A DNA stretch of 64,000 bases. Origin: an uncultured marine group III euryarchaeote. GTDB lineage: Archaea; Thermoplasmatota; Poseidoniia; MGIII; CG-Epi1. The stretch covers positions 4,907 through 68,906 of the forward strand of contig CACOJW010000001.1 of NCBI GenBank assembly GCA_902627615.1, written 5' to 3'. Shown piece after piece: positions 13,740 to 64,000 of this stretch. The notes under the pieces are model-generated. The model had not been told where the DNA came from, made no database searches, and worked only from the letters and a program-made list of their open reading frames with translations. The stretch's first letter is position 1. Each line of letters starts with the position of its first letter. The translations under genes were made by a program, and so were the position numbers.

Positions 13740-13744
13740 TGATT

Positions 13745-23630: not shown

Positions 23631-24161
23631 ATGATTAAAGCATTAAACACCAAGTTGCTACTGACCGTTATGTTAGGCATTAGCTTTTTGAGTATGCAAA
23701 CAACATCTATAGCAGTAGAGTCGAATCCACATACAGATGATGTAGTGATTATTACGGTAGACAGTACGAATCTTCAGTTTTCACCCTCCGAAGTTACAAT
23801 TAACGAGGGTCAAACTGTTAGATTTTTCTGGAGCGGAGAATTTCTAGAGCACAATGCAGTATCTCCGTTAGGAATCTTTAGTACAGGTAATCCTCAAACA
23901 GAAATAGACTATGCGTTTACTTTTGATAAAGGGACGAATAACACATATGATTTCATCTGTGAACCCCACGAATTGGTTAACATGGTGGGAACTATTACAG
24001 TTAATCCAGCCGTAGAGGAAGAACAGGTAACAACTACAAACGAGACAATGGAAGCTGAGCAAGGAGATCTTCCTCAGTCATCTAATTCTCTGAATGGATT
24101 TCTGTTTATCCCAGCAATAGGATTAGTATTATTCGTTTCAAGATATTTTAGGAAAGCTTAG
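23631..24161 (+). CDS. Membrane-anchored type-1 blue copper protein (plastocyanin/halocyanin-like)
   Basis: 176 aa with a signal peptide. The Cu ligands are EHNAV and CEPHELVNM (Cys, His, Met). The C-terminal tail LNGFLFIPAIGLVLFVSRYFRKA resembles a PGF-CTERM variant. Confidence 0.8.
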   Translation: MIKALNTKLLLTVMLGISFLSMQTTSIAVESNPHTDDVVIITVDSTNLQFSPSEVTINEGQTVRFFWSGEFLEHNAVSPLGIFSTGNPQTEIDYAFTFDKGTNNTYDFICEPHELVNMVGTITVNPAVEEEQVTTTNETMEAEQGDLPQSSNSLNGFLFIPAIGLVLFVSRYFRKA

Positions 24162-33900: not shown

Positions 33901-36900
33901 TCCCCTCGAGGAAATACCAAGTACAACATATGTAGTAAGTGCTGAAATTGATGGCAATACTTACACTACCAGAGTTAGTCTTTCAACTTATTACCGAGAT
34001 TCTGATGGCGATGGCTATCCAGATTACTTAGATGATTTCCCAGATGATGATACTGAATGGTTAGATACAGATGGAGATGGAACTGGCAATAATGCAGATA
34101 CAGATGATGATGGTGATGGTTTAACCGATGTTCAGGAACAAAATTCAGACCCAGCTACAGAACCATTAGATCCAGATACAGATGATGATGGCTACTGTGA
34201 TGGTCCCGTTTCAGTCACTATCGATGATGTTCTCATATGTGAAGCAGGCCCAGATGCTTTCCCGACAAATCCAGATGAGTGGAATGATAACGATGGGGAT
34301 GGGATCGGAGACAATGAAGATCCTGATGATGATAATGACCAGATTAGTGATGTTGATGAACTAGCATCCGATCCAGCTTCAGATCCATTAGATGGCTGTT
34401 CTCCTGATCAGAATTCAACTGCTTGTGATATAGATAATGATGGATTACCAAAGGGTGAAGAAATCGTAATAGGTACTAACGTAACCAATCCAGATACAGA
34501 TGGCGATGGATATTGTGATGGCCCTCTAACTGTAATTGGAGTTTGTATCGGAGGAGATGATTTCCCACTAGATGCTGGAGCCCACAAAGATACAGACGGC
34601 GATGGCATGCCAGACAATCTAACAGGTCCTTCAACCTCTGAACCAGCACTTGTAGAAGATCCAGATGACGATAATGATGGTCTTACTGATATTCAAGAAG
34701 ATGCAAATGGTAATGGAACGTTTGATGCAGGCGAAACTAATTCATTAGATCCAGATACGGATGACGATGGTTACTGTGACGGTCCCGTTTCAGTTACAAT
34801 TAACGGTGTTTTCATTTGTGAGGCAGGCCCTGATGCTTTCCCATTAGATCCTTCTGAATGGTTAGATACAGATGGAGATGAAATTGGCAATAATGAAGAT
34901 CCAGATGACGATGGTGACGGTTTGAATGATACATTAGAAGATGTAAATGGAAATGGAATTGTTGACGCAGGTGACACTGATCCTTTGAAGGTAGATACAG
35001 ATGGAGATGGCTTCTGTGATGGGCCAGTAACTATTGTAGATGTCTGTGAAGCAATCGATGCTTTCCCAACAGACGAAACAGAATGGTTCGATACAGATGG
35101 CGACGGCATTGGTGATAATTCAGATCCAGATGTTGATGGAGATGGAGTTGATAATGAGCAAGATGATTTCCCAGATGACGCTTCAGCAAGTAAAGATACA
35201 GACGGCGACGGAATGCCCGACACAATTACAGGCAATTCAACATCAGATCCAGCTCTAGTAGAAGACCTTGATGATGATAATGATGGTTTAACAGATATTG
35301 AAGAAGATACAAACGGTAATGGAACAGCTGACGCTGGTGAAACAGATTCATTGAATCCTGATACAGATGGTGATGGTTATTGTGATGGGCCAGTAACTAT
35401 CGTAGATGTTTGTGTTGCAGTCGATGCTTTCCCATTAGATTCTAGTGAATGGTTAGACACTGACGGAGATGGAATTGGTAATGAAGCAGATCCTGATGAT
35501 GATGGCGACGGTTTGAACGATACCGAAGAAATTGCACTTGGTTCAAGTCCGCTACTCAAGGATACAGATGACGATGGCATTCCAGATAATTGGGATCCTA
35601 GCCCAGTTGATCCAGATGGTGACTATGATGGCGACGGAATTCTTGATAGAGATGAATATAATCCAAATTCAACTACAGGTAACCCAGCAGATTCAGATGG
35701 TGACGGTGTAAATGATATGCTTCAAGGAGTTGCATCTACTAACACCTCTTCGTCAGATGAAAGAAACTGGACTGAATTGTGCTGTTGGGCATTGTTATTA
35801 CTCTTACTTCTTTTGATTCCATTATTGAAGAGGCAATACGACAACTCATTGGTATACGATCCTAATCATATAGAATATACTATCAATGATGACGATGCTA
35901 AAATCCGAATGGTTCCTTCATTACATGAATACACAAAGAATTACAGAAGTTACATGAAGTATGAGGATCTAAGAAGAGTTACTTATGGAATATCAGGAAA
36001 TTTAGTAGAAGGTTTAGATATAGATTCAAAGACGGGAGTAATTTCAGGACATCCAAAGAAAGTTGGATTGTATACGTATGAAGTAATTATGAAGCATTCT
36101 GATGGAAAATTCAAAGGTGAAGTTTCGATTAACGTCATAGATAAGAGCGAAGAAAAACCAGAGGAAGAAGAATCAGAATCTGCAGCAATAGTTAACCCTG
36201 AACCCGAGAATACAAAATCCAAGCCTAAATTTGTTGGAGGGACAGGAACTGAGATGGATCCGTTTGTTCTATCTCCAGCTAAAGGCCTCGAACCAGGTGA
36301 AGAAATTTTATCTAAACAAGTTTTGACAATATCTGGATTAAATTCTGGTGGAGTGGTTAATGCTAAAGATTTGAATTCAAAGGACAATGGCAAGAGGTTC
36401 TCTGTAGTGTCTGAAATTGATGACTTAGGCAGTCAAACTTCATTGGTCGCAGATGAAGATGGTAAAATTAAGTTCAGAGTGAATTTCAAAGACGATGAGC
36501 CTAGTACCGATGGTGCAGATTATGAAGCATTAATGAAGTTAGGAACGGCCTCGGTCTACGTTACATGGGCTGTAGAAGTTCTAAAGGAGGAATCCGAACC
36601 AGAACCTGAACCGGAACCAGAACCTGAGCCAGAGCCCGAACCAGAACCGGAACCTGAGCCTAAACTCGTAGTTACTGAACAAGAGGCTAAGAAGCAGGAA
36701 GAAATCGAAAGAGTCAAAGCTAGAGCTGAAACAATTGATTTCAAGGTAATCGGTGCTGCGACTCAAAGTACGTTGGCTAACGAAGTTGAGGCAGGCGCAT
36801 CAGAAGTTGAACTAGCTGATGCTTCAGAGTTTGAAAATGGAGGTACTGCAACTATTACTGATGCTGACGGAAGTGAGACATTTACTTGGAAAGGTAAAGA

Positions 36901-38868: not shown

Positions 38869-39663
38869 ATGGCGGACACAGATATTGCCACATTTGCATC
38901 AGAAGGAAATCGGGATTTACACATCCTATTCGGTTCTCAAAGTGGTAACTCAGAAGGGCTTGCAGAGAAATGGCAAAAGGAAGCTCCACGCTATGGTTTG
39001 AATCCAACTGTTCACGACATGGATGGTTTTGATATTAAATCTATGAGTGAAATGACCAGAGTCATGATTGTTTGCTCTACTTGGGGTGAAGGGGAAATGC
39101 CCGATAATGCTGAAGAACTATATCAGGAAGCATTAGATGCTGGCAGTATACTTTCAAAAACTAATTTCTCAATATGTGCACTTGGAGATACGGGATACGA
39201 TTTATTCTGTCAATCCGGAAAAGATTGGGATAAAACATTGCAAGACATGGGTGGTTCCAGAATTTACGATCGTGTAGACTGCGATGTAGATTATGAAATG
39301 CCTGCAGAAGAATGGATGAAAGGAGTAATGCCAAAGCTGGCTTGCGTCGGTGACGACGGTGTTTTCGTTTCGGATCTTGAAGAAAAGATGGTTGCTTATG
39401 CTTCTGGAGTGGAAATTGATGAACCTGAAGAAGAGGTAGTGAGTGGAGTACCGCAGGCTGGAGTGATGATGATGCCTCAAGCTATGACTCCTCTTGAAAA
39501 GCCACGTCCACACCATTATACTGGCTACAAACAGAACTCATATTGTGTTAAATGTGGAAAGTATTGCTTTCATTGGCACGGTTCTTCACCGAACAATCCA
39601 AATCTTTATCCTAACTATGAGTGTAAAGAATGTGGATACATAAGGAAAATTAAGATAGCTTGA
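38869..39663 (+). CDS. Flavodoxin (FMN) domain protein with C-terminal Cys4 zinc-ribbon
   Basis: The start is set at the ATG at 38869, which has GAGGT 6 nt upstream. The track extension to 38785 lacks support. HILFGSQSGNSEGLAE is the CysJ-type FMN-binding domain. The C-terminus is CVKCGKYC...CKECGY. The first 190 aa are near-identical to 58382..59368. Confidence 0.8.
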   Translation: MADTDIATFASEGNRDLHILFGSQSGNSEGLAEKWQKEAPRYGLNPTVHDMDGFDIKSMSEMTRVMIVCSTWGEGEMPDNAEELYQEALDAGSILSKTNFSICALGDTGYDLFCQSGKDWDKTLQDMGGSRIYDRVDCDVDYEMPAEEWMKGVMPKLACVGDDGVFVSDLEEKMVAYASGVEIDEPEEEVVSGVPQAGVMMMPQAMTPLEKPRPHHYTGYKQNSYCVKCGKYCFHWHGSSPNNPNLYPNYECKECGYIRKIKIA

Positions 39664-55459: not shown

Positions 55460-55954
55460 ATGAAACGTAGATTTGTAAACGATGAAAAAGCCGTATCTCC
55501 AGTTATTGCAGTTATTTTGATGGTAGCTATTACTGTCGTCATGGCCGCTGTATTGTATGCTTGGGTATCCGGATGGGGCCTACAACCAAAGAACTCGCCA
55601 ACAGGTAGTATGATGGCAAGCAACGACGGCACCACTTGGGATGTACAAATAATTAAAATGAATCCTCAAGCTTCGATTAATTCGGTGCACTGGTATTTGA
55701 TGGACATCCAAGGCTTAACTAAGGCTGAGGGTGTAGTTACGGATATTTATGGTTACAAAAATGGTGAAGGTAAGTCAGTAATTTATATTGATAATGATTA
55801 TAATGCCAAAGTAAGTCCAGGAGATGTTTTTAGATTCTACGCAGGAGAAGGTGATAGTTTAGCAGATACTTCATCAATAGATGATTTTTCATTCCGTTTG
55901 AAATTTGATCCAACTGGCGACACAATTGGTTACGACGTAGATTTTAGTAGTTAA
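55460..55954 (+). CDS. Archaeal type IV pilin-like protein (class III signal peptide), paralog 2
   Basis: 164 aa. The N-terminus is MKRRFVNDEKAVSPVIAVILMVAITVVMAAVLYAWVSG. Confidence 0.8.
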   Translation: MKRRFVNDEKAVSPVIAVILMVAITVVMAAVLYAWVSGWGLQPKNSPTGSMMASNDGTTWDVQIIKMNPQASINSVHWYLMDIQGLTKAEGVVTDIYGYKNGEGKSVIYIDNDYNAKVSPGDVFRFYAGEGDSLADTSSIDDFSFRLKFDPTGDTIGYDVDFSS

Positions 55955-55969
55955 ATAATCTAAAATTTG

Positions 55970-55999
55970 ACGTAAGGTATATATGCACTGCTAGCAGTG
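55970..55999 (+). promoter_or_regulatory. Pilin promoter, copy 2, plus 14-nt perfect palindrome
   Basis: ACGTAAGGTATATATGC (55970-55986) overlaps CACTGCTAGCAGTG (55986-55999), which is its own reverse complement. A leader hairpin CUGAC-UUCG-GUCAG (56008-56021) runs into GAGGA (56021-56025). Confidence 0.55.
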
Positions 56000-56032
56000 T
56001 CTTAGTTCTGACTTCGGTCAGAGGACACAACA

Positions 56033-56536
56033 ATGAAACGAAGAATAGTAAACGATGAGCAGGCAGTTTCACCTGTAATTGCTGTCATTTTGATGGTAGC
56101 TATTACAGTCGTTCTGGCTGCAGTATTGTACGTTTGGGCTAGCAGTTTCCTTGGTGGTACAACCAAGAACGCACCAACCGGCAGTATGATAGCAAGCAGC
56201 GACGGTCAAGGCGACTGGACAATCCAGATTGTTAAGATCAATCCGCAGGTTTCCGTAAACTCTGTACACTGGTATTTACTAGATACACAGGGTAACACTA
56301 AGACTGATGCTCTAGTCTCTGATGTCTACGGCTATTACGAAGGACAAGGTAAAGCAGTAGTATTCATTGACAACGACTTCAATGGAAAGTTGAGCCCAGG
56401 TGACAAATTTGAAGTTCACCCAGCTGAACCCGATTCGGATTTAGCAGCAGTTAGTGATGTAACTGACTACCAATTCCGTTTGAAGTTCGAGCCTAACGGT
56501 GACACAATCGGTTACGATATAGCTCTATCACCATAG
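56033..56536 (+). CDS. Archaeal type IV pilin-like protein (class III signal peptide), paralog 3
   Basis: 167 aa. The N-terminus is MKRRIVNDEQAVSPVIAVILMVAITVVLAAVLYVWASS. Confidence 0.8.
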   Translation: MKRRIVNDEQAVSPVIAVILMVAITVVLAAVLYVWASSFLGGTTKNAPTGSMIASSDGQGDWTIQIVKINPQVSVNSVHWYLLDTQGNTKTDALVSDVYGYYEGQGKAVVFIDNDFNGKLSPGDKFEVHPAEPDSDLAAVSDVTDYQFRLKFEPNGDTIGYDIALSP

Positions 56537-56628: not shown

Positions 56629-57804
56629 TTAATCTAACCAGGGCATTCTCTGTACTGGTTGGGCACCTTCAAGCAAACCAGGATGTACTCTTGCATTAGG
56701 AATTAATTCTAGTATTACTTCATCGATTTTTGAATGTCTGGGAGGTCTTCCAATTTCTAATCTTTTACTGCTCAAGGTGGCATCAGGGTACTTTTTCAGA
56801 AAATCCAAAGCACCATCTTCCCAAGGTGGAGGGCCTTTGTGTGACACGATATCAGGTAACTCTACGGTAGCAGTTTCAAATACTAAAAAACAATTATTTC
56901 CTAAGTTTGCATTCCAAGCAATCGGTTCAAAGTCGGCTATTGCCTTGTTAATTTTTCTCCCTTGTCTTTGTAACCAAGGAAGTACAGTTTCTTCATTACC
57001 TCCTGGATGAGGAAGAGTTACAGTAGTAACAACTCCTTTAGATTTCCTAATCTTATTCTTTGGAAAGAAAAAATCAAGCGTAGGATTATTTAGAAATCCT
57101 TTTGCAGCTAGTATTGCAGTTCCCAAACCCTTCAAGGTGACTCCAGCAGAAACATTACGTCTTTCATCTACTGGATCTTTAATCATCATTACAGCTTTCG
57201 GTGCATTTTTTACGTCTTCTATAACAATAGGAGGTTTCCAAAGGGAAATTTTCCGGACTAAGTTTTCAAAATTTTCATACTTTATAATTAATATCTCTAC
57301 CAAGTATCCGGAAAATCCTCCAATTGCTGCATTAGCTCCGTATGCTCCTGCACCCTTTAGGAATTGCTTTGCTAACCTTACTTCATCCTCTTTTCCTGCA
57401 ATATTTTCAGCGACCCATTTCGTATGAAATGGAGTTCTATCAACTGCAGAAATTGATTTTGATGAGTCTTTGATAGCATAGCACGGTACTAAATCTATGC
57501 CAATACCTTCAATTTCGCCTCTAAGATAAGGATGCTGAGCATATAATTCTTTACCGTCAGTTAAAATTTCCCGAGCTACTTTTAGTCCTTCACTTTTCAA
57601 ATCCGTATCTTCGTCAAACCTAATAAATAAGTCAATATCAGCACCCTTAAGATTTGTTCCCTTAGCTATGGATCCAACAATTAGCGAATCTAAATTCTGT
57701 TTAGTTATTTCATTTTTTAGATTATTGTAAATCTTATTTATTTTTGTGGTTTCATTCTCATCGGGACGTATTCTTTCTAAAACCTCATCAAACAGTGTCT
57801 TCAC
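56629..57804 (-). CDS. cca: CCA-adding enzyme (archaeal class I tRNA nucleotidyltransferase)
   Basis: 391 aa with IVGSIAKGTNLKGADIDLFIRF (the class I polymerase-beta-type GS...DxD motif). The overall archaeal Cca layout is present. Confidence 0.85.
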   Translation of the reverse strand: MKTLFDEVLERIRPDENETTKINKIYNNLKNEITKQNLDSLIVGSIAKGTNLKGADIDLFIRFDEDTDLKSEGLKVAREILTDGKELYAQHPYLRGEIEGIGIDLVPCYAIKDSSKSISAVDRTPFHTKWVAENIAGKEDEVRLAKQFLKGAGAYGANAAIGGFSGYLVEILIIKYENFENLVRKISLWKPPIVIEDVKNAPKAVMMIKDPVDERRNVSAGVTLKGLGTAILAAKGFLNNPTLDFFFPKNKIRKSKGVVTTVTLPHPGGNEETVLPWLQRQGRKINKAIADFEPIAWNANLGNNCFLVFETATVELPDIVSHKGPPPWEDGALDFLKKYPDATLSSKRLEIGRPPRHSKIDEVILELIPNARVHPGLLEGAQPVQRMPWLD

Positions 57805-58373
57805 TCTTCCTCCTCAGGAAGTTTATTATTTTCCAAATCATCATTTCCCTTATCTTTTTCGTTATCCTCAGAATCTTTATTGTCTTTTTCAAACTTGCCT
57901 CTACGCCATGCCTTTATTCTTTCTTTTTCAGCTCGTTTTCTTAAGGTTTCAATATCATCCTTGATAGGTAAAAATATAGGTATAATAAATATAATTAGAC
58001 CAAATATAAATGCTACTAATCCCCAAATTAAATACTCAGGTTGATATGTTATAGTTTCAATAAAAATACTAATTAGTATCATGGAAATAATGGTAGAAGT
58101 CCAAATAATTTTGCGATAACTTTTTTCACTAAAGTAATACTTGTCCCCTTCGTCAGGAATTTCCACTGAAAAGTCTGCATCAGGTATTGTAATTTCATCA
58201 TTTTTGGTAATGGGCCTTTCTAGTTTTATTTTTCTAAGATATAGATGAGCAAATATTCCTCCAAACAAGAATGCTACCTGCCCGTATCCAGGGTCTCCCG
58301 CTGCAGTTGCAGCCCATATTGCGTATGCAACACAGAGCCATATTGCTACAATAATAGAATTATATAAATCCAT
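57801..58373 (-). CDS. Hypothetical 4-TM membrane protein with K/E/D-rich tail
   Basis: 190 aa. It lies 8 nt downstream of the flavodoxin-ferredoxin gene and overlaps cca by 4 nt. Confidence 0.5.
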   Translation of the reverse strand: MDLYNSIIVAIWLCVAYAIWAATAAGDPGYGQVAFLFGGIFAHLYLRKIKLERPITKNDEITIPDADFSVEIPDEGDKYYFSEKSYRKIIWTSTIISMILISIFIETITYQPEYLIWGLVAFIFGLIIFIIPIFLPIKDDIETLRKRAEKERIKAWRRGKFEKDNKDSEDNEKDKGNDDLENNKLPEEEE

Positions 58374-58381
58374 CTAAAAAT

Positions 58382-59368
58382 CTAGACTTTGCTTTCCATA
58401 GTTATTGCTTCCACAGGGCAAGCAAAAGCGCACAATGTACAACCAACACAAGTATCATCAAGGATGAGAGCTTTTTTCGATTCAAATTGTGAAGTTCTCG
58501 CATTTAAGTCCCAAGAAATCATATCTATTGATGCAAAATTACAATAATAAACGCATTGAGTGCATCCTATACATTTTTCGTTATCTACTAAAGCAATGTA
58601 ATCTCTTCCCTGGGGTAATGATTTCAAGGTTACCTTTCTTAGTTCCTTAAACATCTCTTTTGCTTTTTCAATACCTGTTGTTGGTAGTTCATCTTCTGCC
58701 AACACTCCTTTGACTCGCTTTAACCACTTATTAGGTTTTTTGAAAAAGAGTGGAACTGTAGCCATGGCTTGGTAAGCGGTAGTTCCTCCAACAGCTTCAA
58801 CTTCTTCTTCAGGCTCATCAATTTCCACTCCAGAAGCGTAAGCAACCATTTTTTCTTCAAGCTCAGGAACAAAATTTCCGTCATCCCCGACGCAAGCTAG
58901 CTTTGGCATTACTCCATTCATCCACTCTTCTGCAGGCATTTCGTAATCTACATCACAGTCTACGCGATCATAAATTCGGGCACCGCCCATATCTTGCAAA
59001 GTTTTGTCCCAATCTTTTCCGGATTGACAGAATAGATCGTATCCTGTATCTCCAAGAGAGCAAACTGAGAAATTAGTTTTTGAAAGTATACTGCCAGCAT
59101 CTAATGCCTCTTGATATAGTTCTTCAGCATTATCAGGCATTTCTCCTTCTCCCCAAGTAGAGCAAACAATCATCACACGCGTCATTTCGCTCATGGATTT
59201 AATATCAAATCCATCCATGTCATGAACAGTTGGATTCAAACCATAGCGTGGAGCTTCCTTTTGCCATTTCTCTGCAAGCCCTTCTGAGTTACCACTTTGG
59301 GAACCGAATAAGATGTGTAAATCCCGATTTCCTTCAGTTGCGAATTTAGTAATGTCAGTATCAGACAT
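58382..59368 (-). CDS. Flavodoxin (FMN) domain fused to a 2x[4Fe-4S] ferredoxin domain
   Basis: 328 aa. The N-terminal 190 aa are near-identical to 38869..39438. The C-terminus has CIGCTQCVYYC and CVGCTLCAFACP. Confidence 0.8.
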   Translation of the reverse strand: MSDTDITKFATEGNRDLHILFGSQSGNSEGLAEKWQKEAPRYGLNPTVHDMDGFDIKSMSEMTRVMIVCSTWGEGEMPDNAEELYQEALDAGSILSKTNFSVCSLGDTGYDLFCQSGKDWDKTLQDMGGARIYDRVDCDVDYEMPAEEWMNGVMPKLACVGDDGNFVPELEEKMVAYASGVEIDEPEEEVEAVGGTTAYQAMATVPLFFKKPNKWLKRVKGVLAEDELPTTGIEKAKEMFKELRKVTLKSLPQGRDYIALVDNEKCIGCTQCVYYCNFASIDMISWDLNARTSQFESKKALILDDTCVGCTLCAFACPVEAITMESKV

Positions 59369-60258
59369 TAATTTTCACCTTCTAAACATGCAACAAGAAA
59401 TTGCATCAAATCCATCATTTCATAGTCGTGATGATGGCCGTCTTCAGGATTCATTCGTTCTTCATTTAACATACATTGCATGTGCATGTAGCATTTTGGA
59501 CAGCCTCCAAGCATCAAATCAATACCTGCATCAGTTCCTTGGTCGAGTCTTTTTCTACGTACTGCTTTAGTTGCATCATTACAATACATCATAGATGATA
59601 CGCCACAACATAATGCACGTTCTTTGTTATTTTCTAATTCGACCATGGTAGCGCCGTCTACAAGTTGTATTAAATCTCTAGGAGCCTCATACTCGCCCAT
59701 CATTCTTCCTAGACGGCACGGATCGTGATAGGCAACGGTTACATTTTCAGGAGCTTTGAATTTTAATCCTCTACCTTGCAAGGTTTGGGTGATGTGTTCA
59801 ACCTTAATTCCTAGCTTTCCAGGAAGATCATAATCTACTGCAAAAGTTCGATAGCATTCAGCACATGAACAGGTTAAAATTTTTATTCCAGACTCTTTTA
59901 ATCTTCGCATATTATGTTCTTTTAGGGCATCAAATACTTCTAATTGGCCTTGCCATAATTGATCGTGGCCTGAACATTTGAACATGTTCATATCCAATAT
60001 TAATGGATCAATATTTGCATAATTTAACAATTTTATTGAGGCGGCTGCAATTGAAGCATGGTCAGCATCGCCTTTGTTCAAGTGAGTAAATTTAACTTCA
60101 ACATCCATAAAATCTACGCATCCTGGAAAATAGCCATATTCGTGAGGCCTTTCTGGTTTCCAGGAGCTTTCATCTTTATTCATGGCGTCTTCTACAATCA
60201 GTCTCTCAAATAGTGGATGTGGAATAGTTCTAGCATATGGCTTGGTTCTACTACTCAT
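59368..60258 (-). CDS. Two-CCG-domain Fe-S protein (HdrB / GlcF C-terminal / SdhE-like)
   Basis: 296 aa. CCG-type domain 1 is degenerate (YFPGC...KCSGH...LTCSCAECY). Domain 2 is YHDPCRLGR...ALCCGVSS...GGCPKCY. Confidence 0.7.
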   Translation of the reverse strand: MSSRTKPYARTIPHPLFERLIVEDAMNKDESSWKPERPHEYGYFPGCVDFMDVEVKFTHLNKGDADHASIAAASIKLLNYANIDPLILDMNMFKCSGHDQLWQGQLEVFDALKEHNMRRLKESGIKILTCSCAECYRTFAVDYDLPGKLGIKVEHITQTLQGRGLKFKAPENVTVAYHDPCRLGRMMGEYEAPRDLIQLVDGATMVELENNKERALCCGVSSMMYCNDATKAVRRKRLDQGTDAGIDLMLGGCPKCYMHMQCMLNEERMNPEDGHHHDYEMMDLMQFLVACLEGEN

Positions 60259-61372
60259 GATTCAACACCGCCTTTGGAGACTCGCCACCAATAATGTTTG
60301 GAATTGTCGTATCGGAATCTGAGCTTGCACCCATAGTAAAGAGTGCTCTTTGTTCTAAGACATAATCGATGTACTCTATATTTTGAGGGCAAACGGCAGT
60401 ACACATTCCACATGTTATACATGACCACATTGCAGTTCCGTCATGTTCATTTTGGAATGTATTGTAAATAATATTTAATTCGTGCTCACCTTCCATATCT
60501 CTTACGGGGCAAATGTCATCACATAGACCACATTGATAGCAACGATTCAATTTGAATTCATATATTCTTTGCATTCTTCTGTCAGTTATTCCATTGACAT
60601 ACAGATCAAACCTCTCTTCATCAGTAAGTGGCTTTGCACCTTCAGACCTTCTTCTATCTAAAAATACGTAAGTCATTATTGCAAGAACAATAGGTCCCCA
60701 TACTGTTAGTACCATCAGAATATCTGTAGTTACTTGAGGGTAATACAGTGCAATGTTAGCATTAATAGAGAATATAGATAGCATGACAATCATTACAATT
60801 CCGTAAACTCCTATCGCAGCTCTTACAGGATCTTCGACAGGTCTTCTCTCATGCCCGCGGTTTACGACATCTCCATACTGAGGATCAATTAGTGCACCAA
60901 TTGCCCTATCGATAAAGGGAACTGCAATTACAAGATTTACTATTAAACCTTGAACCAAAGTTCCCCAAACTTTAGCAGACATCAAGAATAGCTCGATATC
61001 TTCTAATCCTAAGAATGGAAGCATAGATAGAGGTATAGTCATTTTGATATCCCATGCTACTTTTAAGCATCCAAAAGCCCACAATAGATACCAATCAGGT
61101 AATGGCGGAGGATAAGCAGTTCCAGCAGTTGGATCTGCAGCAGAATGTAACGGTGGCGGTACAAAAGCCGTTAGGTAAAACAAAAGTGCCATGATATATA
61201 GGGTAAAGACTCCGTCCCGTGTTACTTCGTGTGGGTAAAGCGGTTCTCCTTTAATCATATCAGCTTCGAGAACTGAGTGATCTTCTCTATTTTCCAGCTT
61301 ATTTATTGTATCAAGGTCTAATTGCTCTTCTTGATGCTCATAAATCATTTCTGTTAAGTCGTCTTCACTCAT
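60251..61372 (-). CDS. Fusion of the cytochrome b C-terminal part (subunit IV-like, 4 TM) to a cytoplasmic 2x[4Fe-4S] (HdrC-like) domain
   Basis: 373 aa. AADP...PPLPDWYLLWAF corresponds to the PEWY motif of the Qo site. Four TMs are followed by CYQCGLCDDICP and CITCGMCTAVCP. Confidence 0.75.
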   Translation of the reverse strand: MSEDDLTEMIYEHQEEQLDLDTINKLENREDHSVLEADMIKGEPLYPHEVTRDGVFTLYIMALLFYLTAFVPPPLHSAADPTAGTAYPPPLPDWYLLWAFGCLKVAWDIKMTIPLSMLPFLGLEDIELFLMSAKVWGTLVQGLIVNLVIAVPFIDRAIGALIDPQYGDVVNRGHERRPVEDPVRAAIGVYGIVMIVMLSIFSINANIALYYPQVTTDILMVLTVWGPIVLAIMTYVFLDRRRSEGAKPLTDEERFDLYVNGITDRRMQRIYEFKLNRCYQCGLCDDICPVRDMEGEHELNIIYNTFQNEHDGTAMWSCITCGMCTAVCPQNIEYIDYVLEQRALFTMGASSDSDTTIPNIIGGESPKAVLNHE

Positions 61373-62337
61373 CAGTGCGGTTCAGCCTCCCCTTGTATCC
61401 ATACAATAGCCATATGAATTATCATAAGTACAGTTCCTACTAGAGGAAGCACAAAAATATGAAGCCAATACATTCTTGTTACAGTATCTCCAGTAATTTG
61501 GGTCCCTCCAAATACAATAGCTGCAATCGGTGGCCCCATGGCTGGAATTGAGGTAGCCATTTCAAGTCCGATAGATGCTGCAGCGAATCCAAGCTCATCC
61601 CAAGGCAGAATATATCCTGTGAAACCGAAAAATATGGTAACCATGAGTAATATAACTCCTAGAATCCAGTTAACTTCACGAGGATTTCTGTATGCTCCAA
61701 CAAAGTAAACTCTCATCATATGTAGAAATACTGCAGCTACCATGAAATGCGCAGCCCAGTGGTGAATTGCGCGAATAATATAACCAAATGATACTTGAGT
61801 CATTATTAGCTCCATAGATCTGTAGGCTCCTGAGGAAGCTTTACCGGTCTCAGGGTCAGTAATAAATTCACCATCAGGTACATAATAAAATCCTAAATAT
61901 ATTCCAGTAATTACTAGAATTATGTATGAAAAGAAAGAAAGTCCTCCCAGTGAGTAGAATGGATACCAATACCATACAGCTTTTACATTGTACCTTTCAG
62001 TATGGGATTGAGGCATCGTTCTTCCTGTTGCAGGGAGTAAAGTGTAAACAACTGAATAGTATTCTCTCTTAACTAATGAAACATATCGGTGTAGTGCAAA
62101 TCTTTCGTCTACCCACTTCCACGCTTCAAACATTATTCCAGGAAGTAGACCTGTGAAATACAAGTATCCTACTCCTAGTGCACCACCGAGTAAAGATAAA
62201 AATATCAGTGGGAAAGTATATTTGCGCATTAACTCTTCTATTAACGGAGTTTCAGCATTAGCAGGCAATGCGAAGAAGGTTAAACACCCTATTATAATCA
62301 TTAGTATTTTGTTAATTTTCATTTTAGCCCTGCCCAC
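61372..62337 (-). CDS. Cytochrome b, N-terminal (b6-like) half
   Basis: 321 aa. IHHWAAHFMVAAVFLHMMRVYFVGAY gives H-x13-H, and HIFVLPLVGTVLMIIH gives the b6-type H-x14-H. The GYILPWDELGFAA motif is present. Confidence 0.9.
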   Translation of the reverse strand: MGRAKMKINKILMIIIGCLTFFALPANAETPLIEELMRKYTFPLIFLSLLGGALGVGYLYFTGLLPGIMFEAWKWVDERFALHRYVSLVKREYYSVVYTLLPATGRTMPQSHTERYNVKAVWYWYPFYSLGGLSFFSYIILVITGIYLGFYYVPDGEFITDPETGKASSGAYRSMELIMTQVSFGYIIRAIHHWAAHFMVAAVFLHMMRVYFVGAYRNPREVNWILGVILLMVTIFFGFTGYILPWDELGFAAASIGLEMATSIPAMGPPIAAIVFGGTQITGDTVTRMYWLHIFVLPLVGTVLMIIHMAIVWIQGEAEPH

Positions 62338-63013
62338 AATATTTTAGCCAATCAATTTCAGTAGTTAATCCTATCAGTTCACCGTTTTCTTCAGCAACAG
62401 GAACTACAGGTAAGCCATAGGGCGCGGGCCCTTCCAATAATTCAGCAGCCATGACTTCTCTTCCCTGCTCGTCTATATTTTGTATTATAGATATAGGGTC
62501 AAATAGTGATAAATGGCAAGGACAAAGGAACATATTCTCATAGTCTTTCCCACTTATGGCACTAGTTCCAGCTTCAGTATACACAGGTTTACAACATAGA
62601 TGCGGGCATTTGTAAGTATGATATGCCATCAAAATAGAACTTCCATCTCCAACACTTACTCCTAATCCTTCCATTCCCGGTTCAGCAGGTACTCTTGCAA
62701 GAGCTAATTGAATTTCGCAGGCCCCCAATTCTTCCTCTAAATTTTCGGGACCCCAATTAACGATTGCGACGTCCCACACATTCTCGAAATCAGCAACAGT
62801 GGCAACGTCGTTTCCTTTATTTTCGTACCACTTTCCAGCTTCAGCTTTGAATGTAAGCGTATCATGCGCATCATCTTTATTGCACCTAGTAATTGGAGGT
62901 GGCAGTAAGGTTTTCAGAGCAGGAACAGCAAGAGCCCCAGTCATACCGGCACCAGCTAATCCAATAGCTCCTTGTAAGAAGCCTCTTCGAGTAATTTCCA
63001 TATTACCTCTCAA
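62324..63013 (-). CDS. Rieske [2Fe-2S] protein with twin-arginine signal
   Basis: 229 aa with TRRGFLQGAIGLAGAG (Tat signal). The cluster boxes are CPHLCC and CPCHLSLF. The likely start is the ATG at 63001. Confidence 0.85.
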   Translation of the reverse strand: MRGNMEITRRGFLQGAIGLAGAGMTGALAVPALKTLLPPPITRCNKDDAHDTLTFKAEAGKWYENKGNDVATVADFENVWDVAIVNWGPENLEEELGACEIQLALARVPAEPGMEGLGVSVGDGSSILMAYHTYKCPHLCCKPVYTEAGTSAISGKDYENMFLCPCHLSLFDPISIIQNIDEQGREVMAAELLEGPAPYGLPVVPVAEENGELIGLTTEIDWLKYCGQG

Positions 63014-63296
63014 GTTTTGTAATAACTTTCCTCCTTCGTTTTTTTGCTTCTAAGATATCTGGCATGAAAGAGCGCCTGTAGAAATCAATCATAAGTCCTA
63101 AAACCAGAAATGCCATAGCTAGAACAAATGAAAGAAACTGCTGATCCCATCCTTCTAATATGCCATATATGAATAGAGAATCATACATAATTTCAAGAAC
63201 TAAAAAAATAAGTATTATTGCGAATACTTCTATTTGTTCTTTACCAGGGATATTTCGTAGCTGTTTCCCGAGTTCTTCATCCCTGTATGTACCCAT
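63003..63296 (-). CDS. Small 2-TM membrane protein in the Rieske/cyt b operon
   Basis: 97 aa with two hydrophobic helices and a basic tail. It overlaps the Rieske ORF by 11 nt. Confidence 0.5.
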   Translation of the reverse strand: MGTYRDEELGKQLRNIPGKEQIEVFAIILIFLVLEIMYDSLFIYGILEGWDQQFLSFVLAMAFLVLGLMIDFYRRSFMPDILEAKKRRRKVITKLER

Positions 63297-63354
63297 AAGT
63301 TTCTGAGCATCTTCTGCAGTTAGTTCCCCTTTGGAAACTTTTTCTAGGATTTCA

Positions 63355-64000
63355 TTAACCTCGGTAATTTGAACTCCCTCCTCGTATTACTATGTAAGAA
63401 ATAAAAACAGATAAGAAAACTACAGCTATAGCAATTAATGCAATCCAATATTGCATTATTGACACTCCCATTTCATGTATTGAGCTTTCGTGTGTTGTAG
63501 CTTGTGGGGTGCCTAAAGATACAGCGGTTAAGTATCCCCATTGGTCTCCATTAGTTCCTTGCCCATTAACTGCATTAAAATAGATTATGAAAACAGCATC
63601 TCCTGCCCCTTCGGTAGGTGCAGCCCATTGGAAAGTCCAATTTCGAACGTCGTTACTATTATCATTATGCGAAATGTAAGCACCTTCGCCACCTACCCAA
63701 TAATTTTCATCAGTGATAAATGCACCTTCTGTAACTTCAGCTAGAAAACCACCATACCTTACTGCATCTTCTACCATAATAACAGTCGAATCATATATAA
63801 CTAAGGTAATATTATAAGTTTCCTCAGGCACATATGAATTTGGTATTCCTTCCAAGCTATACATTCCTTCATTCAACTGTTCGTCCATGTGACAAGAGCA
63901 ACCGTTTGCAATGGAGTCTTCAGCCCATTCATCACCGCCACTGACCCCACCGTTAGGATATCCTTCAGCACTTTTACCAACTATGAGTGCTGTTACAATC
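63355..64000 (-). CDS. Exported Reeler/DOMON-like domain protein with C-terminal TM anchor; 5' end outside window
   Basis: The frame stays open upstream of the track Met (...IVTALIVGKSAEGYPNGGVSGGDEWAEDSIANGCSCHMDEQ...). The Reeler-like pattern is C..H near the start, GGFLAEV, SH...NWTFQWAAP..GAGDAVFIIYFNAVN. A terminal TM helix is present. Confidence 0.55.
   Translation of the reverse strand, partial: IVTALIVGKSAEGYPNGGVSGGDEWAEDSIANGCSCHMDEQLNEGMYSLEGIPNSYVPEETYNITLVIYDSTVIMVEDAVRYGGFLAEVTEGAFITDENYWVGGEGAYISHNDNSNDVRNWTFQWAAPTEGAGDAVFIIYFNAVNGQGTNGDQWGYLTAVSLGTPQATTHESSIHEMGVSIMQYWIALIAIAVVFLSVFISYIVIRGGSSNYRG

What the first reader, a model, noticed from the sequence alone, without database searches (positions are those of the whole stretch)
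57801..64000. Rieske/cytochrome b module hard-wired to HdrC/HdrB-like Fe-S modules and a flavodoxin-ferredoxin
Nine co-oriented minus-strand genes are packed with 1-14 nt overlaps (63013/63003, 62337/62324, 61372, 60258/60251, 59368, 57804/57801). This implies one translationally coupled operon. The gene order is as follows. First is a Reeler/DOMON-like exported protein, then a 97-aa 2-TM protein. Then come the Tat-signal Rieske protein and the b6-like cytochrome b N-terminal half (H-x13-H and H-x14-H). Next is a protein whose N-terminal half is the cytochrome b C-terminal/subunit IV part (PDWYLLWAF = PEWY). After a fourth TM it continues into a cytoplasmic 2x[4Fe-4S] domain. Then follow a two-CCG-domain (HdrB-like) protein, an FMN flavodoxin fused to another 2x[4Fe-4S] domain, and a 4-TM protein. 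The ninth gene, cca, closes the string. In canonical bc1/b6f complexes the low-potential branch ends at the Qi site. Here the b-haem subunit is covalently extended by cytoplasmic Fe-S clusters. It is followed by an HdrD-like (C+B) unit and a low-potential flavin/Fe-S carrier. Four TMs after the PEWY loop place the Fe-S domain on the cytoplasmic side, which is topologically consistent. Two readings are possible. In one, the low-potential electron of quinol oxidation is exported to a cytoplasmic acceptor (a disulfide, or flavodoxin/ferredoxin). In the other, a cytoplasmic donor feeds quinone, as in HdrDE/DsrMK-type modules, with a Rieske branch added. No cytochrome c1/f gene is present. The candidate high-potential partners are the Reeler-like protein and the blue copper protein at 23631..24161.
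Basis: partly seen in the sequence, partly recalled or inferred. Interest (0 to 1): 0.8.

Follow-up and report, generated by a model that had tools for sequence, protein, structure and literature searches.

The report
Complex III wired to cytoplasmic iron-sulfur carriers
A marine archaeon (Marine Group III) encodes a respiratory Rieske/cytochrome b complex whose cytochrome b is fused to iron-sulfur domains and followed by an EtfD/HdrD-like protein and a tethered flavodoxin or ferredoxin. This probably lets low-potential cytoplasmic electrons enter complex III directly; the layout is real, conserved and biochemically untested.

Summary
Nine co-oriented, abutting or overlapping minus-strand genes (56629 to beyond 64000) encode:
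- a Reeler-fold membrane protein;
- DUF7318;
- a Tat-Rieske protein;
- a b6-like cytochrome b N-half with four invariant His and no haem ci Cys;
- a cytochrome b C-half (PDWY, 4 TM) fused to 2x[4Fe-4S];
- a two-CCG protein whose Cys pattern matches mycobacterial EtfD;
- a flavodoxin + 2x[4Fe-4S] protein;
- a TM protein;
- cca.

The window is from Marine Group III Euryarchaeota, and the order is kept in every MGIII locus with enough flank. In other archaea the cytochrome b C-half, Fer4 and CCG domains form one polypeptide, which supports a physical complex. Two of those loci are followed by HdrC/B/A and MvhD genes.

The core belongs to the known haloarchaeal split Rieske/cyt b type. The flavodoxin replaced an ancestral zinc-ferredoxin-like domain in one MGIII subclade.

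Best reading (about 0.5): reduced ferredoxin/flavodoxin, or ETF, feeds an Fe-S wire to haem bH and the Qi site. Rival (about 0.2): low-potential electrons are exported.

Prior art is one sentence on Angelarchaeales (Diamond 2022). I rate it a new variant of a known kind, interest about 0.68.

The parts
63355..64000 (-). g1: Reeler-fold ('choice-of-anchor V') extracytoplasmic protein with a C-terminal TM anchor. The ORF runs off the window end. It carries an invariant Cys-His (GCSCH) and His111. It is a conserved first gene of this archaeal Rieske/cyt b operon type.
   Evidence: NF041895, 7.6e-16; Foldseek F-spondin reeler, E 4e-5; synteny.
63003..63296 (-). g2: DUF7318, a 2-TM protein. A conserved SHOCT-like N-terminal helix is encoded upstream of the ATG (to about 63374) without a canonical start codon.
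   Evidence: (PF24002, 5.7e-14); present next to the Rieske gene in haloarchaeal, Thermoplasmata and Hydrothermarchaeota loci.
62324..63013 (-). g3: Tat-signal Rieske [2Fe-2S] protein (CPHLCC...CPCHLSLF). Its likely start is the ATG at 63001.
   Evidence: TIGR01416 5e-8; TAT signal; 7yr9 Rieske, 9e-4; C136, H138, C140, C141, C164, C166, H167 invariant in 15 aligned sequences.
61372..62337 (-). g4: cytochrome b N-terminal half (b6-like). Four haem-ligand His: H192/H206 and H293/H308. It reads FYSLGG where b6 has FYCLGG, so there is no haem ci Cys. It has two extra N-terminal hydrophobic segments.
   Evidence: PF00033, 2e-39; spinach b6 6rqf, 2.7e-41, alignment.
60251..61372 (-). g5: cytochrome b C-terminal half (subunit IV-like plus an eighth helix; 4 TM) fused to a cytoplasmic 2x[4Fe-4S] HdrC-like domain.
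   Evidence: Fer4_8, 1.3e-10; QcrB C-half, 3.4e-9; HdrC; family profile: cyt b C-halves 1e-12, subunit IV 7e-7, HdrC 8e-11, EtfD 7e-32; relatives hit PF00032.
61088..61099 (-). PDWY: the Qo-site PEWY motif, residues 92-95 of g5.
   Evidence: (invariant P92 D93 W94 Y95).
60388..60541 (-). Eight cluster cysteines of g5: CYQCGLCDDICP ... CITCGMCTAVCP (C278-C288 and C318-C328).
   Evidence: all eight Cys and both Pro invariant.
59368..60258 (-). g6: two-CCG-domain Fe-S protein of EtfD/HdrD type. The first motif is C-S-G (single Cys) and the second is CCG. Cys47/95/132/135 and Cys181/217/218/253/256 line up with EtfD cluster D1 and D2 ligands.
   Evidence: PF02754, 2.2e-18, two stretches; TfrB 8e-25; 9ojn EtfD 3e-14, alignment. 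Only Cys95 to Cys256 are inside the printed alignment; the Cys47 match to EtfD Cys503 is inferred by motif position.
58382..59368 (-). g7: CysJ/MioC-like FMN flavodoxin domain (residues 19-147) plus linker plus an RnfB/NuoI-like 2x[4Fe-4S] domain (residues 259-324).
   Evidence: (Flavodoxin_1 7.5e-29; Fer4_21 3.7e-14). In many MGIII relatives the N-domain is instead a zinc-ferredoxin-like 2-cluster domain.
MGIII-specific, function unknown.
   Evidence: no significant family; conserved in position in MGIII only.
56629..57804 (-). g9: archaeal CCA-adding enzyme. Its GTG start overlaps the g8 stop. It is co-oriented and syntenic in MGIII but functionally unrelated.
   Evidence: (TIGR03671, 3.7e-103).
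23631..24161 (+). Halocyanin/plastocyanin-like blue copper protein with a signal peptide and a C-terminal TM. It is a possible, unproven electron acceptor and is not part of the operon.
   Evidence: PF00127, 3.3e-12; halocyanin domain, 2e-11.
38869..39663 (+). Second flavodoxin gene: 94% aa identity over 181 aa to the g7 flavodoxin domain, with a Cys-rich C-terminal tail (CxxC...CxxC). It may be the free counterpart of the tethered domain.

Best explanation
[quoted passage not shown] It has acquired a cytoplasmic Fe-S 'wire'.

Anatomy (shown):
- Rieske protein, b6-like N-half and 4-TM C-half of cytochrome b.
- Conserved accessory subunits g1 (Reeler fold) and g2 (DUF7318).
- After the eighth helix, on the cytoplasmic side, the C-half continues into a 2x[4Fe-4S] domain.
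- Next comes an EtfD/HdrD-type two-CCG protein.
- Last comes a subunit made of an RnfB/NuoI-like 2x[4Fe-4S] domain and a tethered soluble-carrier domain. That carrier domain is zinc-ferredoxin-like in the ancestral form and flavodoxin in this lineage.

Mechanism (inferred):
- Reduced ferredoxin/flavodoxin, for example from 2-oxoacid:ferredoxin oxidoreductases, or possibly ETF, donates electrons to g7.
- Electrons pass through the CCG clusters of g6 and the two cubane clusters of g5 to haem bH and the retained Qi quinone site. This mirrors the mycobacterial EtfD wire: CCG clusters, then 2x[4Fe-4S], then haem b, then menaquinone.
- Quinol made at Qi is oxidised at Qo. One electron goes through the Rieske protein to a blue copper protein and the oxidase; the other returns through bL/bH.
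- Complex III thus doubles as the entry point for low-potential cytoplasmic electrons. This is a Mitchell-type Q cycle in which the second Qi electron comes from the n-side.
For: Identity of the parts.

Physical coupling:
- The cyt b(C)-Fer4 fusion is universal in MGIII.
- Cyt b(C)-Fer4-CCG is one ORF in nine non-MGIII loci and in library proteins P0123/P0125/P0136/P0139.
- The linker from helix H to the first Cys is only about 14 residues in the most compact of those relatives, such as P0122. This would keep the cluster at the membrane surface.

Co-conservation: g1-g9 order is kept in all MGIII loci with enough flank.

Direction of electron flow:
- The best solved homologue of g6 and of the family profile is EtfD, an ETF:menaquinone oxidoreductase that feeds haem b and MK (PMC13083937).
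- g6 has EtfD's single-Cys first motif (C-S-G) rather than Hdr's CCG.
- The Qi-side PHExxRD signature, which corresponds to mitochondrial FHPYYTIKD, is retained in MGIII just as in Fer4-less relatives. The Fe-S chain is therefore added to Qi and does not replace it.
- The distal domain of g7 is a copy of a soluble carrier: zinc-ferredoxin-like (8.7e-18), swapped for flavodoxin in a derived clade. A 94%-identical free flavodoxin gene lies in the same window.
- Diamond et al. 2022 independently proposed ferredoxin entry at complex III for Angelarchaeales.
Against: - No experiment and no structure exist. The AF2 model of g5 was unusable (pLDDT 40) and multimers could not be run, so the haem bH-to-cluster distance is unknown.
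- Electron-wire homology says nothing about direction; Fe-S chains are reversible.
- These archaea are reported to have a complex I lacking NuoEFG that could already oxidise ferredoxin (for related groups), so the need for a second entry point is unclear.
- Distant relatives keep a full CCG in both motifs and sit next to HdrABC/MvhD genes, so other chemistry is possible in the wider family.
- The donor (ferredoxin, flavodoxin or ETF) is not identified.
Confidence: 0.5

Rival explanations
1. Export of the low-potential electron (quinone-based bifurcation with a cytoplasmic outlet). Quinol oxidation at Qo sends one electron to the Rieske protein. The other goes through bL and bH into the Fe-S chain to reduce flavodoxin/ferredoxin or another cytoplasmic acceptor, instead of or besides Qi. 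This resembles what has been proposed for the anammox Rieske/cyt b complexes with NAD(P) oxidoreductase subunits (background knowledge: Kartal et al. 2013; de Almeida et al. 2016).
For: - The same architecture supports either direction.
- The terminal subunit carries low-potential carrier domains.
- In L053 and L047 the Qi Arg-Asp is lost.
- L053 and L079 are followed by HdrA/MvhD bifurcation-type genes, so an outlet role is conceivable at least in those lineages.
Against: - In MGIII the Qi signature is retained.
- MGIII genes in the window indicate an aerobic heterotroph (tyrosine catabolism, peptidases), for which reduced ferredoxin is a product rather than a need.
- Inference: an electron moving from bL to bH works against the membrane potential. 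With menaquinol (about -74 mV) and a Rieske centre near +200 mV, the low-potential electron is at best about -350 mV, which is marginal for ferredoxin or the flavodoxin sq/hq couple.
- The nearest characterised homologue, EtfD, works inward.
Confidence: 0.2
2. EtfD-like role. The physiological donor is electron-transfer flavoprotein from beta-oxidation and amino-acid catabolism rather than ferredoxin/flavodoxin. The module would be an ETF:quinone oxidoreductase built onto complex III, with g7 acting as an adaptor.
For: - EtfD is the best solved match to g6 (3e-14) and to the family profile (7e-32), with matching D1/D2 Cys ligands.
- Marine Group II, the sister group of MGIII, is described as degrading fatty acids and proteins.
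Against: - No ETF genes lie in the operon or in the 64-kb window.
- EtfD needs no ferredoxin/flavodoxin subunit, whereas here a carrier-like subunit is conserved.
- EtfD His583 is Glu134 here.
Confidence: 0.15
3. Genuine Hdr-like thiol/disulfide chemistry. The CCG protein would reduce a cytoplasmic disulfide with electrons from haem bH, or oxidise a thiol pair to reduce quinone, as in HdrDE, DsrMK or sHdr systems.
For: - CCG domains are the catalytic module of HdrB/HdrD.
- Distant fused relatives keep CCG in both motifs.
- Those relatives neighbour HdrC/HdrB/HdrA/MvhD genes, and in L053 also a GcvH-like lipoate-carrier protein.
Against: - In MGIII the first motif has lost the extra Cys (C-S-G). 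In EtfD this pattern binds an occluded linear [3Fe-4S] cluster that serves electron transfer, not catalysis.
- No thiol-cofactor or sulfur-metabolism genes lie in the operon.
Confidence: 0.08
4. There is no shared complex. The Fe-S genes are merely co-transcribed with an ordinary Rieske/cyt b complex, and the Fer4 tail on g5 is a non-functional or regulatory appendage.
For: cca shows that unrelated genes can ride in this operon.
Against: - All eight cluster Cys and both Pro are invariant across relatives that are only 31-43% identical to g5.
- Independent fusions join cyt b(C), Fer4 and CCG.
- Synteny holds across several archaeal groups, judging by the record titles.
Confidence: 0.04

Closest known systems
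Haloarchaeal 'halocyanin-Rieske/cyt b' cluster (split cytochrome b; Baymann et al. 2012, PMC3509893; 'subfamily N' of Dibrova et al. 2017, PMC5600118)
   Same: - Cytochrome b is split after helix 4, with eight helices in total (4+4).
- No haem ci cysteine and no c1/f gene.
- Flanking 'hypothetical' genes, here identified as g1 (Reeler fold) and g2 (DUF7318), are shared with haloarchaeal, Thermoplasmatales and Hydrothermarchaeota loci.
   Different: - Haloarchaeal C-halves end after helix 8 and have no Fer4, CCG or ferredoxin/flavodoxin genes.
- No halocyanin gene lies in the MGIII operon; the nearest blue copper gene is 34 kb away.
- The MGIII Rieske protein has Ser/Phe rather than Ser/Tyr at the potential-tuning positions.
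Mycobacterial EtfD / EMO-type membrane Fe-S oxidoreductases (PDB 9ojn; PMC13083937)
   Same: - Two cubane [4Fe-4S] clusters plus two CCG domains on the cytoplasmic face of a haem-b membrane domain next to a quinone site.
- The first CCG motif has a single Cys.
- All D1 and D2 Cys ligands are present at the corresponding positions.
   Different: - EtfD is one polypeptide with its own 5-TM mono-haem anchor and no Rieske/Qo branch.
- Here the anchor is the bc-type cytochrome b of a Q-cycle enzyme, and the parts are split over g5 and g6.
- A carrier-like subunit (g7) is added.
- EtfD His583 is Glu here.
HdrDE / DsrMK / HmeCD-type quinone-interacting Hdr-like modules
   Same: An HdrC-like 2x[4Fe-4S] domain plus an HdrB-like CCG pair attached to a membrane b-cytochrome.
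   Different: - Those use a NarI/HdrE-type cytochrome b and have no Rieske protein or Qo site.
- In HdrB both CCG motifs carry the Cys pair; MGIII g6 lacks one Cys.
Angelarchaeales complex III locus with hdrD-like and rnfB-like genes (Diamond et al. 2022, PMC9038741)
   Same: The same association was noted, and the same hypothesis was stated in one sentence: complex III as an entry point for reduced ferredoxin. Thermoplasmata loci L054 and L063-L067 show g2, Rieske, cyt b, cyt b(C)-Fer4, CCG and an RnfB-like gene where the contig reaches far enough.
   Different: - As far as the passages I searched show, that paper gives no analysis of the cyt b(C)-Fer4 fusion, the EtfD-type ligands, the accessory subunits or the distribution.
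- MGIII adds the zinc-ferredoxin/flavodoxin carrier domain and g8.
Proposed ferredoxin:plastoquinone reductase route through cytochrome b6f in cyclic electron flow; anammox Rieske/cyt b complexes with NAD(P) oxidoreductase subunits
   Same: The same concept: an n-side redox partner communicating with the low-potential haem/Qi region of a Rieske/cyt b complex (one search lists 10.1101/2020.08.22.262592; the anammox case is from background knowledge).
   Different: - b6f uses haem cn and transient Fd/FNR binding.
- Anammox complexes use FAD/NAD(P) subunits.
- Here the link is a covalently fused Fe-S chain.

Membership tests
Rieske/cytochrome b complex (bc1/b6f superfamily) | Rieske [2Fe-2S] subunit with CxH...CxxH ligands plus disulfide Cys, exported by Tat | tested here: met
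   CPHLCC...CPCH; C136/H138/C164/H167 and C141/C166 are invariant in 15 aligned sequences. Tat signal found. PDB Rieske match 9e-4.
Rieske/cytochrome b complex (bc1/b6f superfamily) | Cytochrome b with two His pairs on helices B and D (haems bL and bH) | tested here: met
   PF00033 2e-39. Cytochrome b6 match 2.7e-41 with all four His aligned. H192/H206/H293/H308 invariant.
Rieske/cytochrome b complex (bc1/b6f superfamily) | Qo-site PEWY motif in the ef loop of the C-terminal part | tested here: met
   PDWY at g5 residues 92-95, invariant. The family profile hits cyt b C-halves at 1e-12 and subunit IV at 7e-7.
Rieske/cytochrome b complex (bc1/b6f superfamily) | Cytochrome c1 or f subunit | tested here: not met
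   No CxxCH protein is encoded in the operon. This is usual for archaeal members. g1 is a candidate substitute, unproven.
Cytochrome b6f sensu stricto | Cys that binds haem ci/cn (FYCLGG); 4+3 helices | tested here: not met
   The motif is FYSLGG. g5 has four TMs, so 4+4 helices.
Haloarchaeal split Rieske/cyt b cluster | Split after helix 4, eighth helix present, no haem ci Cys, DUF7318-type upstream gene | tested here: met
   A cultured haloarchaeon locus (L072) shows DUF7318, Rieske, cyt b N-half and cyt b C-half.
Haloarchaeal split Rieske/cyt b cluster | Halocyanin gene within the cluster | tested here: not met
   The only blue copper gene found is at 23631-24161, about 34 kb away.
HdrD / HdrBC heterodisulfide reductase | HdrC-like 2x[4Fe-4S] (two CxxCxxCxxxCP motifs) | tested here: met
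   g5 C278-C288 and C318-C328. HdrC matches.
HdrD / HdrBC heterodisulfide reductase | Two complete CCG motifs (C...CCG...CxxC) forming the catalytic noncubane cluster pair | tested here: not met
   The first motif is K-C-S-G, with one Cys; the second is complete. Some distant fused relatives do have CCG in both motifs.
HdrD / HdrBC heterodisulfide reductase | Disulfide reductase activity; HdrE/NarI-type anchor | not testable with these tools
   Activity cannot be tested here. The anchor is a bc-type cytochrome b, not the HdrE type.
EtfD / EMO (ETF:menaquinone oxidoreductase) | Cluster ligands: D1 by four Cys (single-Cys first motif), D2 by five Cys, plus two cubane clusters | tested here: met
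   Within the alignment to 9ojn, g6 C95/132/135 match EtfD C538/581/584 and C181/217/218/253/256 match C637/672/673/709/712. C47 is matched to EtfD C503 by motif position only, because it lies outside the aligned stretch. His583 is replaced by Glu134.
EtfD / EMO (ETF:menaquinone oxidoreductase) | Own 5-TM mono-haem b anchor in the same polypeptide; ETF as donor | tested here: not met
   The anchor is the cyt b C-half of a Rieske/cyt b complex. No etf genes lie in the window. The donor is not testable here.
RnfB (Rnf complex subunit) | Part of an rnfABCDEG operon | tested here: not met
   Only Fer4-domain similarity was found (TIGR01944 at 1e-10, below its cut-off). No other rnf genes were seen in the annotated ORFs of the window.
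Flavodoxin | Flavodoxin_1 FMN-binding fold | tested here: met
   PF00258 7.5e-29. CysJ FMN domain 1ykg 1.8e-25.

The most novel reading that the evidence does not exclude
This complex III variant would be a natural, hard-wired solution to a question still argued for cytochrome b6f: can a Rieske/cyt b complex exchange electrons directly with ferredoxin-level carriers on the n-side?

The most novel version not excluded by my evidence has the flow running outward. Qo-site bifurcation in an abundant marine archaeon would then deliver its low-potential electron through haem bH and a fused Fe-S chain to flavodoxin/ferredoxin. That would make a quinol-driven, quinone-based bifurcating ferredoxin/flavodoxin reductase. 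In relatives such as L053 and L079 it would be coupled to an HdrABC/MvhD flavin-based bifurcating module.

A second unexcluded novelty concerns g1. The Reeler-fold subunit with its invariant Cys-His could be the long-missing covalent-haem or metal subunit, a c1 analogue, of archaeal bc complexes. This would address the 'haloarchaea paradox'.
Probability: 0.2. Interest if true: 0.9.

Novelty: new variant of a known kind. Interest (0 to 1): 0.68.

Why it matters
Rieske/cyt b complexes are normally closed Q-cycle machines whose low-potential branch ends at Qi. A variant with a covalently attached cytoplasmic Fe-S chain has three consequences:

1. It would show how aerobic archaea that oxidise 2-oxoacids with ferredoxin-dependent enzymes return those electrons to respiration.
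2. It would provide a stable natural model for n-side electron exchange with haem bH/Qi. That idea goes back to Mitchell's original Q cycle and is still disputed for b6f in cyclic electron flow.
3. It links the two known bifurcation worlds. The Qo site and Hdr-type modules occur here in one operon family.

The ferredoxin-to-flavodoxin domain swap within MGIII is a compact example of apparent iron-sparing remodelling inside a respiratory complex. MGIII and related Thermoplasmatota are widespread in the ocean, soils and groundwater, so the enzyme is likely to be quantitatively relevant.

Tried and rejected
- **AF2 of g5:** a 13-sequence MGIII alignment gave pLDDT 40.5 and pTM 0.22. The model is unusable, so no fold search was run and no topology was taken from it.
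- **AF2 of g1 with diverse locus-derived homologues:** It was redone with MGIII-only homologues and gave pLDDT 69.
- **g1 as a cytochrome f analogue:** I considered this because of its N-terminal 'YP' and the CxCH motif about 20 residues later, its beta-rich domain and its C-terminal anchor. Foldseek gives the Reeler domain and no cytochrome f hit among the matches listed. The 'YP' and the first Cys are not conserved outside MGIII. The idea is rejected as stated. Only the invariant Cys-His plus His111 remains unexplained.
- **First genome scan:** the 12-sequence alignment had no usable conserved stretch. A second attempt with 8 sequences worked, but it relied on a single peptide pattern ([LF]PDWY[LF][LI]W). 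Lineages with another Qo motif, possibly MGII proper, would have been missed.
- **Haem ci / true b6f membership:** rejected.
- **RnfB identity of g7:** rejected; the similarity is limited to the Fer4 domain.
- **Literature:** searches found no characterisation of such a complex. The only mentions are Tully 2019 (an orphan 'RnfB' plus cyt b/Rieske in MGII) and one sentence in Diamond 2022.
- **Promoter/terminator scan:** not run, because that tool does not cover archaeal promoters.

Full report
**What is in the sequence**

The table gives the junctions when each ORF is taken at its longest.

| Junction | Overlap or gap |
|---|---|
| g1/g2 | 58-nt gap |
| g2/g3 | 11-nt overlap |
| g3/g4 | 14-nt overlap |
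| g4/g5 | 1-nt overlap |
| g5/g6 | 8-nt overlap |
| g6/g7 | 1-nt overlap |
| g7/g8 | 8-nt gap |
| g8/g9 | 4-nt overlap |

Gene calls in relatives are 4-5 codons shorter for g3 and g4 (225 and 316 aa). I infer that these two genes start at internal ATGs, which would leave 1-nt spacers. Either way the string is contiguous.

- g1 has no stop upstream and runs off the window.
- The frame of g2 stays open for 30 codons above its ATG. It encodes a conserved SHOCT-like helix there. Relatives start that helix with GTG or ATG, but the window has GTT at that position.

**Identity of the parts**

| Gene | Identity | Key evidence |
|---|---|---|
| g1 | Reeler fold with C-terminal TM anchor | Pfam Reeler only 0.002; NCBIfam 'choice-of-anchor V' 7.6e-16; AF2 model pLDDT 69 matches F-spondin reeler domains, E 4e-5 |
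| g2 | DUF7318, 2 TM | 5.7e-14 |
| g3 | Tat-Rieske protein | Tat signal and CPHLCC...CPCH; ligands and disulfide Cys invariant in 15 aligned sequences |
| g5 | cytochrome b C-half + 2x[4Fe-4S] | TMs near 54-72, 133-155, 185-203 and 218-236; PDWY at 92-95; two CxxCxxCxxxCP motifs after the fourth TM |
| g6 | two-CCG protein | PF02754 2.2e-18 |
| g7 | flavodoxin + 2x[4Fe-4S] | CysJ/MioC-like FMN domain, PF00258 7.5e-29; RnfB/NuoI-like Fer4 domain |
| g8 | membrane protein | no family match |
| g9 | archaeal CCA-adding enzyme | 3.7e-103 |

An odd number still places the Fe-S domain in the cytoplasm.

Pfam's Cytochrom_B_C model does not reach significance on the window protein itself. The assignment of the g5 N-half rests on other evidence:
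- NCBIfam QcrB matches the C-half at 3.4e-9.
- Relatives hit PF00032 with E-values between 1e-12 and 1e-6.
- A family profile hits Rhodobacter and actinobacterial cytochrome b C-halves (1e-12), b6f subunit IV (7e-7), HdrC (8e-11), HdrB (1e-7) and EtfD (7e-32).

**Where it comes from and how conserved it is**

The g5 protein is 97% identical to one from a Marine Group III euryarchaeote single-cell genome. More than 100 database clusters share at least 61% identity, and the few that carry an organism name are from marine group II/III or Thermoplasmatota archaea.

I compared all nine window proteins with 84 fetched loci. The results fall into three groups.

- **MGIII loci.** Every locus with enough flank keeps the g1-g9 order.
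- **Other archaeal MAGs with the fusion.** Most are labelled Thermoplasmata, Methanomassiliicoccales or Methanobacteriota, with single Geothermarchaeales and Bathyarchaeia records. They also have the cyt b(C)-Fer4 fusion. Nine loci, and library proteins of 543-932 aa, carry the CCG domains in the same ORF. Eight loci have CCG as the next gene, often followed by an RnfB-like ferredoxin. Three loci have the Fer4 tail only.
- **Loci without Fe-S parts.** Haloarchaeal, Thermoplasmatales and Hydrothermarchaeota loci have g1, g2, Rieske, cyt b N-half and cyt b C-half only.

The core is therefore the split, eight-helix, haem-ci-less haloarchaeal Rieske/cyt b type described by Baymann et al. 2012. The 'hypothetical' flanking genes of that description are now identifiable as the Reeler-fold and DUF7318 subunits. 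The Fe-S extension is an add-on found in a subset of lineages.

The fusions are Rosetta-stone evidence that g5, g6 and the membrane core form one complex.

**The terminal subunit**

In many MGIII relatives g7 is a 271-274-aa protein with four Fer4 motifs and no flavodoxin. Its N-terminal part resembles the zinc-containing ferredoxins of Thermoplasmatales (8.7e-18). That ferredoxin class is described as the acceptor of 2-oxoacid:ferredoxin oxidoreductases in aerobic archaea (abstract of PMC2946596, listed).

A neighbour-joining tree of g4+g5+g6 places the polyferredoxin form in the deep branches. The flavodoxin form occupies one derived, nearly monophyletic clade that includes the window. A carrier-like ferredoxin domain was therefore replaced by flavodoxin. 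This is the classical iron-sparing substitution.

The window also holds a second flavodoxin gene (38869-39663, plus strand). It is 94% identical over 181 aa to the g7 domain and has a Cys-rich C-terminal tail. Orthologous g7 flavodoxin domains in other full-length MGIII loci are only 72-78% identical to the window's. This points to a recent duplication or gene conversion. Together these observations suggest that soluble ferredoxin/flavodoxin is the natural partner of the module.

**Which way do electrons go?**

The best solved homologue of g6 is M. smegmatis EtfD (9ojn; 3e-14). Its structure shows a wire running from CCG clusters D1/D2 through two cubane clusters and haem b to menaquinone. EtfD accepts electrons from ETF.

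Several features point to inward flow, from a cytoplasmic donor to haem bH/Qi:
- g6 has EtfD's single-Cys first motif (C-S-G against C-T-G).
- g6 has Cys residues at positions corresponding to all D1 and D2 Cys ligands of EtfD. It lacks the extra Cys that characterises catalytic HdrB.
- The n-side PHExxRD signature of g5 is retained in MGIII exactly as in relatives without the Fe-S tail. This signature corresponds to the mitochondrial FHPYYTIKD segment, which holds the Qi Lys/Asp (from background knowledge).
- The Fe-S chain therefore appears to be added beside a working Qi site rather than replacing it.

This gives a Q cycle in which the second Qi electron comes from ferredoxin, flavodoxin or ETF.

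The opposite direction cannot be excluded. In that reading, Qo bifurcation exports its low-potential electron. It is thermodynamically marginal for ferredoxin against a membrane potential (inference). It also seems unnecessary for an aerobic heterotroph (window context).

In two distant lineages the picture may differ:
- In L079 and L053 the fused gene is followed by HdrC, HdrB, tandem HdrA and MvhD genes. L053 also has FrhB-like, GcvH and FAD-oxidase genes.
- In L053 and L047 the Qi Arg-Asp is lost.

**Prior knowledge**

- Tully et al. 2019 noted that MGII has cytochrome b and Rieske genes but no canonical bc1, plus an orphan 'RnfB'.
- Diamond et al. 2022 wrote one sentence on Angelarchaeales. 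[quoted passage not shown]
- No paper in the searchable library analyses the fusion, its ligands, its distribution or its biochemistry.
- The phylogenomic survey by Dibrova et al. 2017 contains no mention of 4Fe-4S clusters or heterodisulfide reductase.

**High-potential side**

No c1/f gene is present. g1 has an invariant Cys-His (CxCH in MGIII, xxCH elsewhere) and an invariant His111 on a Reeler-fold ectodomain. It heads the operon in haloarchaeal-type clusters too.

The haem-c subunit of haloarchaeal bc complexes has never been identified (Kletzin 2015; Pfeiffer and Dyall-Smith 2021). That makes g1 a candidate worth testing, but nothing here shows that it binds a cofactor. The halocyanin-like protein at 23631-24161 has the usual copper ligands and a membrane anchor. 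It lies 34 kb from the operon.

**Verdict**

The most likely function is electron entry from low-potential cytoplasmic carriers into complex III. The arrangement is a new, uncharacterised variant of a known enzyme family, already glimpsed once in the literature.

Noticed in passing
window 38869-39663 (+) versus 58797-59368 (-): A second flavodoxin gene is 94% identical in protein over 181 aa to the g7 flavodoxin domain (DNA aligned). It has a Cys-rich C-terminal tail (CxxC...CxxC). Orthologous g7 domains in other full-length MGIII loci are only 72-78% identical, which suggests a recent duplication or gene conversion within this lineage.
   Followed up: partly
window 63296-63390 (-), g1/g2 junction: g2's conserved SHOCT-like N-terminal 26 aa are encoded upstream of its ATG and have no ATG/GTG/TTG start. 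The window has GTT where L001 has GTG, and the window's ATG is TTG or CTA in relatives. A conserved GGAGG lies just upstream. The g2 frame is the g1 frame shifted by +1 and overlaps the g1 stop. The start is either non-canonical or a +1 frameshift.
   Followed up: partly
window 63355-64000 (-); also L056, L059, L062, L069, L070, L078: The Reeler-fold first gene of the operon has an invariant Cys-His (GCSCH in MGIII) and an invariant His111 in a low-confidence loop. It co-occurs with Rieske/cyt b genes in haloarchaeal-type clusters. It could be the unidentified covalent-haem or metal subunit behind the 'haloarchaea paradox'. No cofactor evidence exists.
   Followed up: partly
L079:8708-13566 and L053:3683-10843: In two distant archaeal lineages the cyt b(C)-Fer4-CCG fusion gene is followed, co-directionally, by HdrC-like, HdrB-like, tandem HdrA-like (about 1010 aa) and MvhD/FlpD genes. 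L053 also has FrhB-like, GcvH-like and FAD_binding_4 genes. L079 has a multihaem c gene upstream in place of g1.
   Followed up: partly
L042, L043, L082: A third variant occurs in high-GC MAGs labelled Halobacteria or Methanobacteriota. It has cyt b(C)-Fer4 without any CCG gene nearby. L042 and L082 have a small gene upstream with a C-x-x-C-H motif, as in mono-haem cytochromes c. L042 and L043 have a small (93-102 aa) ORF downstream of g5.
   Followed up: no
L047 and L053, g5 N-terminal region: The otherwise conserved n-side PHExxRD motif (Qi-site Arg/Lys-Asp equivalent) reads IIQF and IVPL in these two fused lineages, so Qi may be altered there.
   Followed up: no
window 56629-57804 (-): The archaeal cca gene overlaps the stop of g8 (GTGA). 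It keeps this position behind the respiratory operon in all MGIII loci with enough flank, an odd but conserved hitch-hiker.
   Followed up: no
window 4343-11416 (-) and 27941-37474 (+): Two giant ORFs. One is 2357 aa, with an STT3 (AglB-like) oligosaccharyltransferase N-terminus fused to CarboxypepD_reg, CARDB and PEGA domains. The other is 3177 aa, with RCC1 repeats and He_PIG domains.
   Followed up: no
window 11452-16017 (-): A tyrosine/homogentisate catabolic cluster: HPPD-like dioxygenase, homogentisate dioxygenase-like protein, an unassigned ORF and fumarylacetoacetase. This is consistent with an aerobic heterotroph.
   Followed up: no
window 25727-26431 (-) and 55460-56536 (+), 2481-3056 (+): A TatC gene, needed for Rieske export, lies about 36 kb from the operon. 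One ORF (2481-3056) matches the archaeal type IV pilin N-terminal family. Two tandem ORFs beside the operon (55460-56536) have similar pilin-like N-termini, and the corresponding genes in relatives carry Pilin_N.
   Followed up: no
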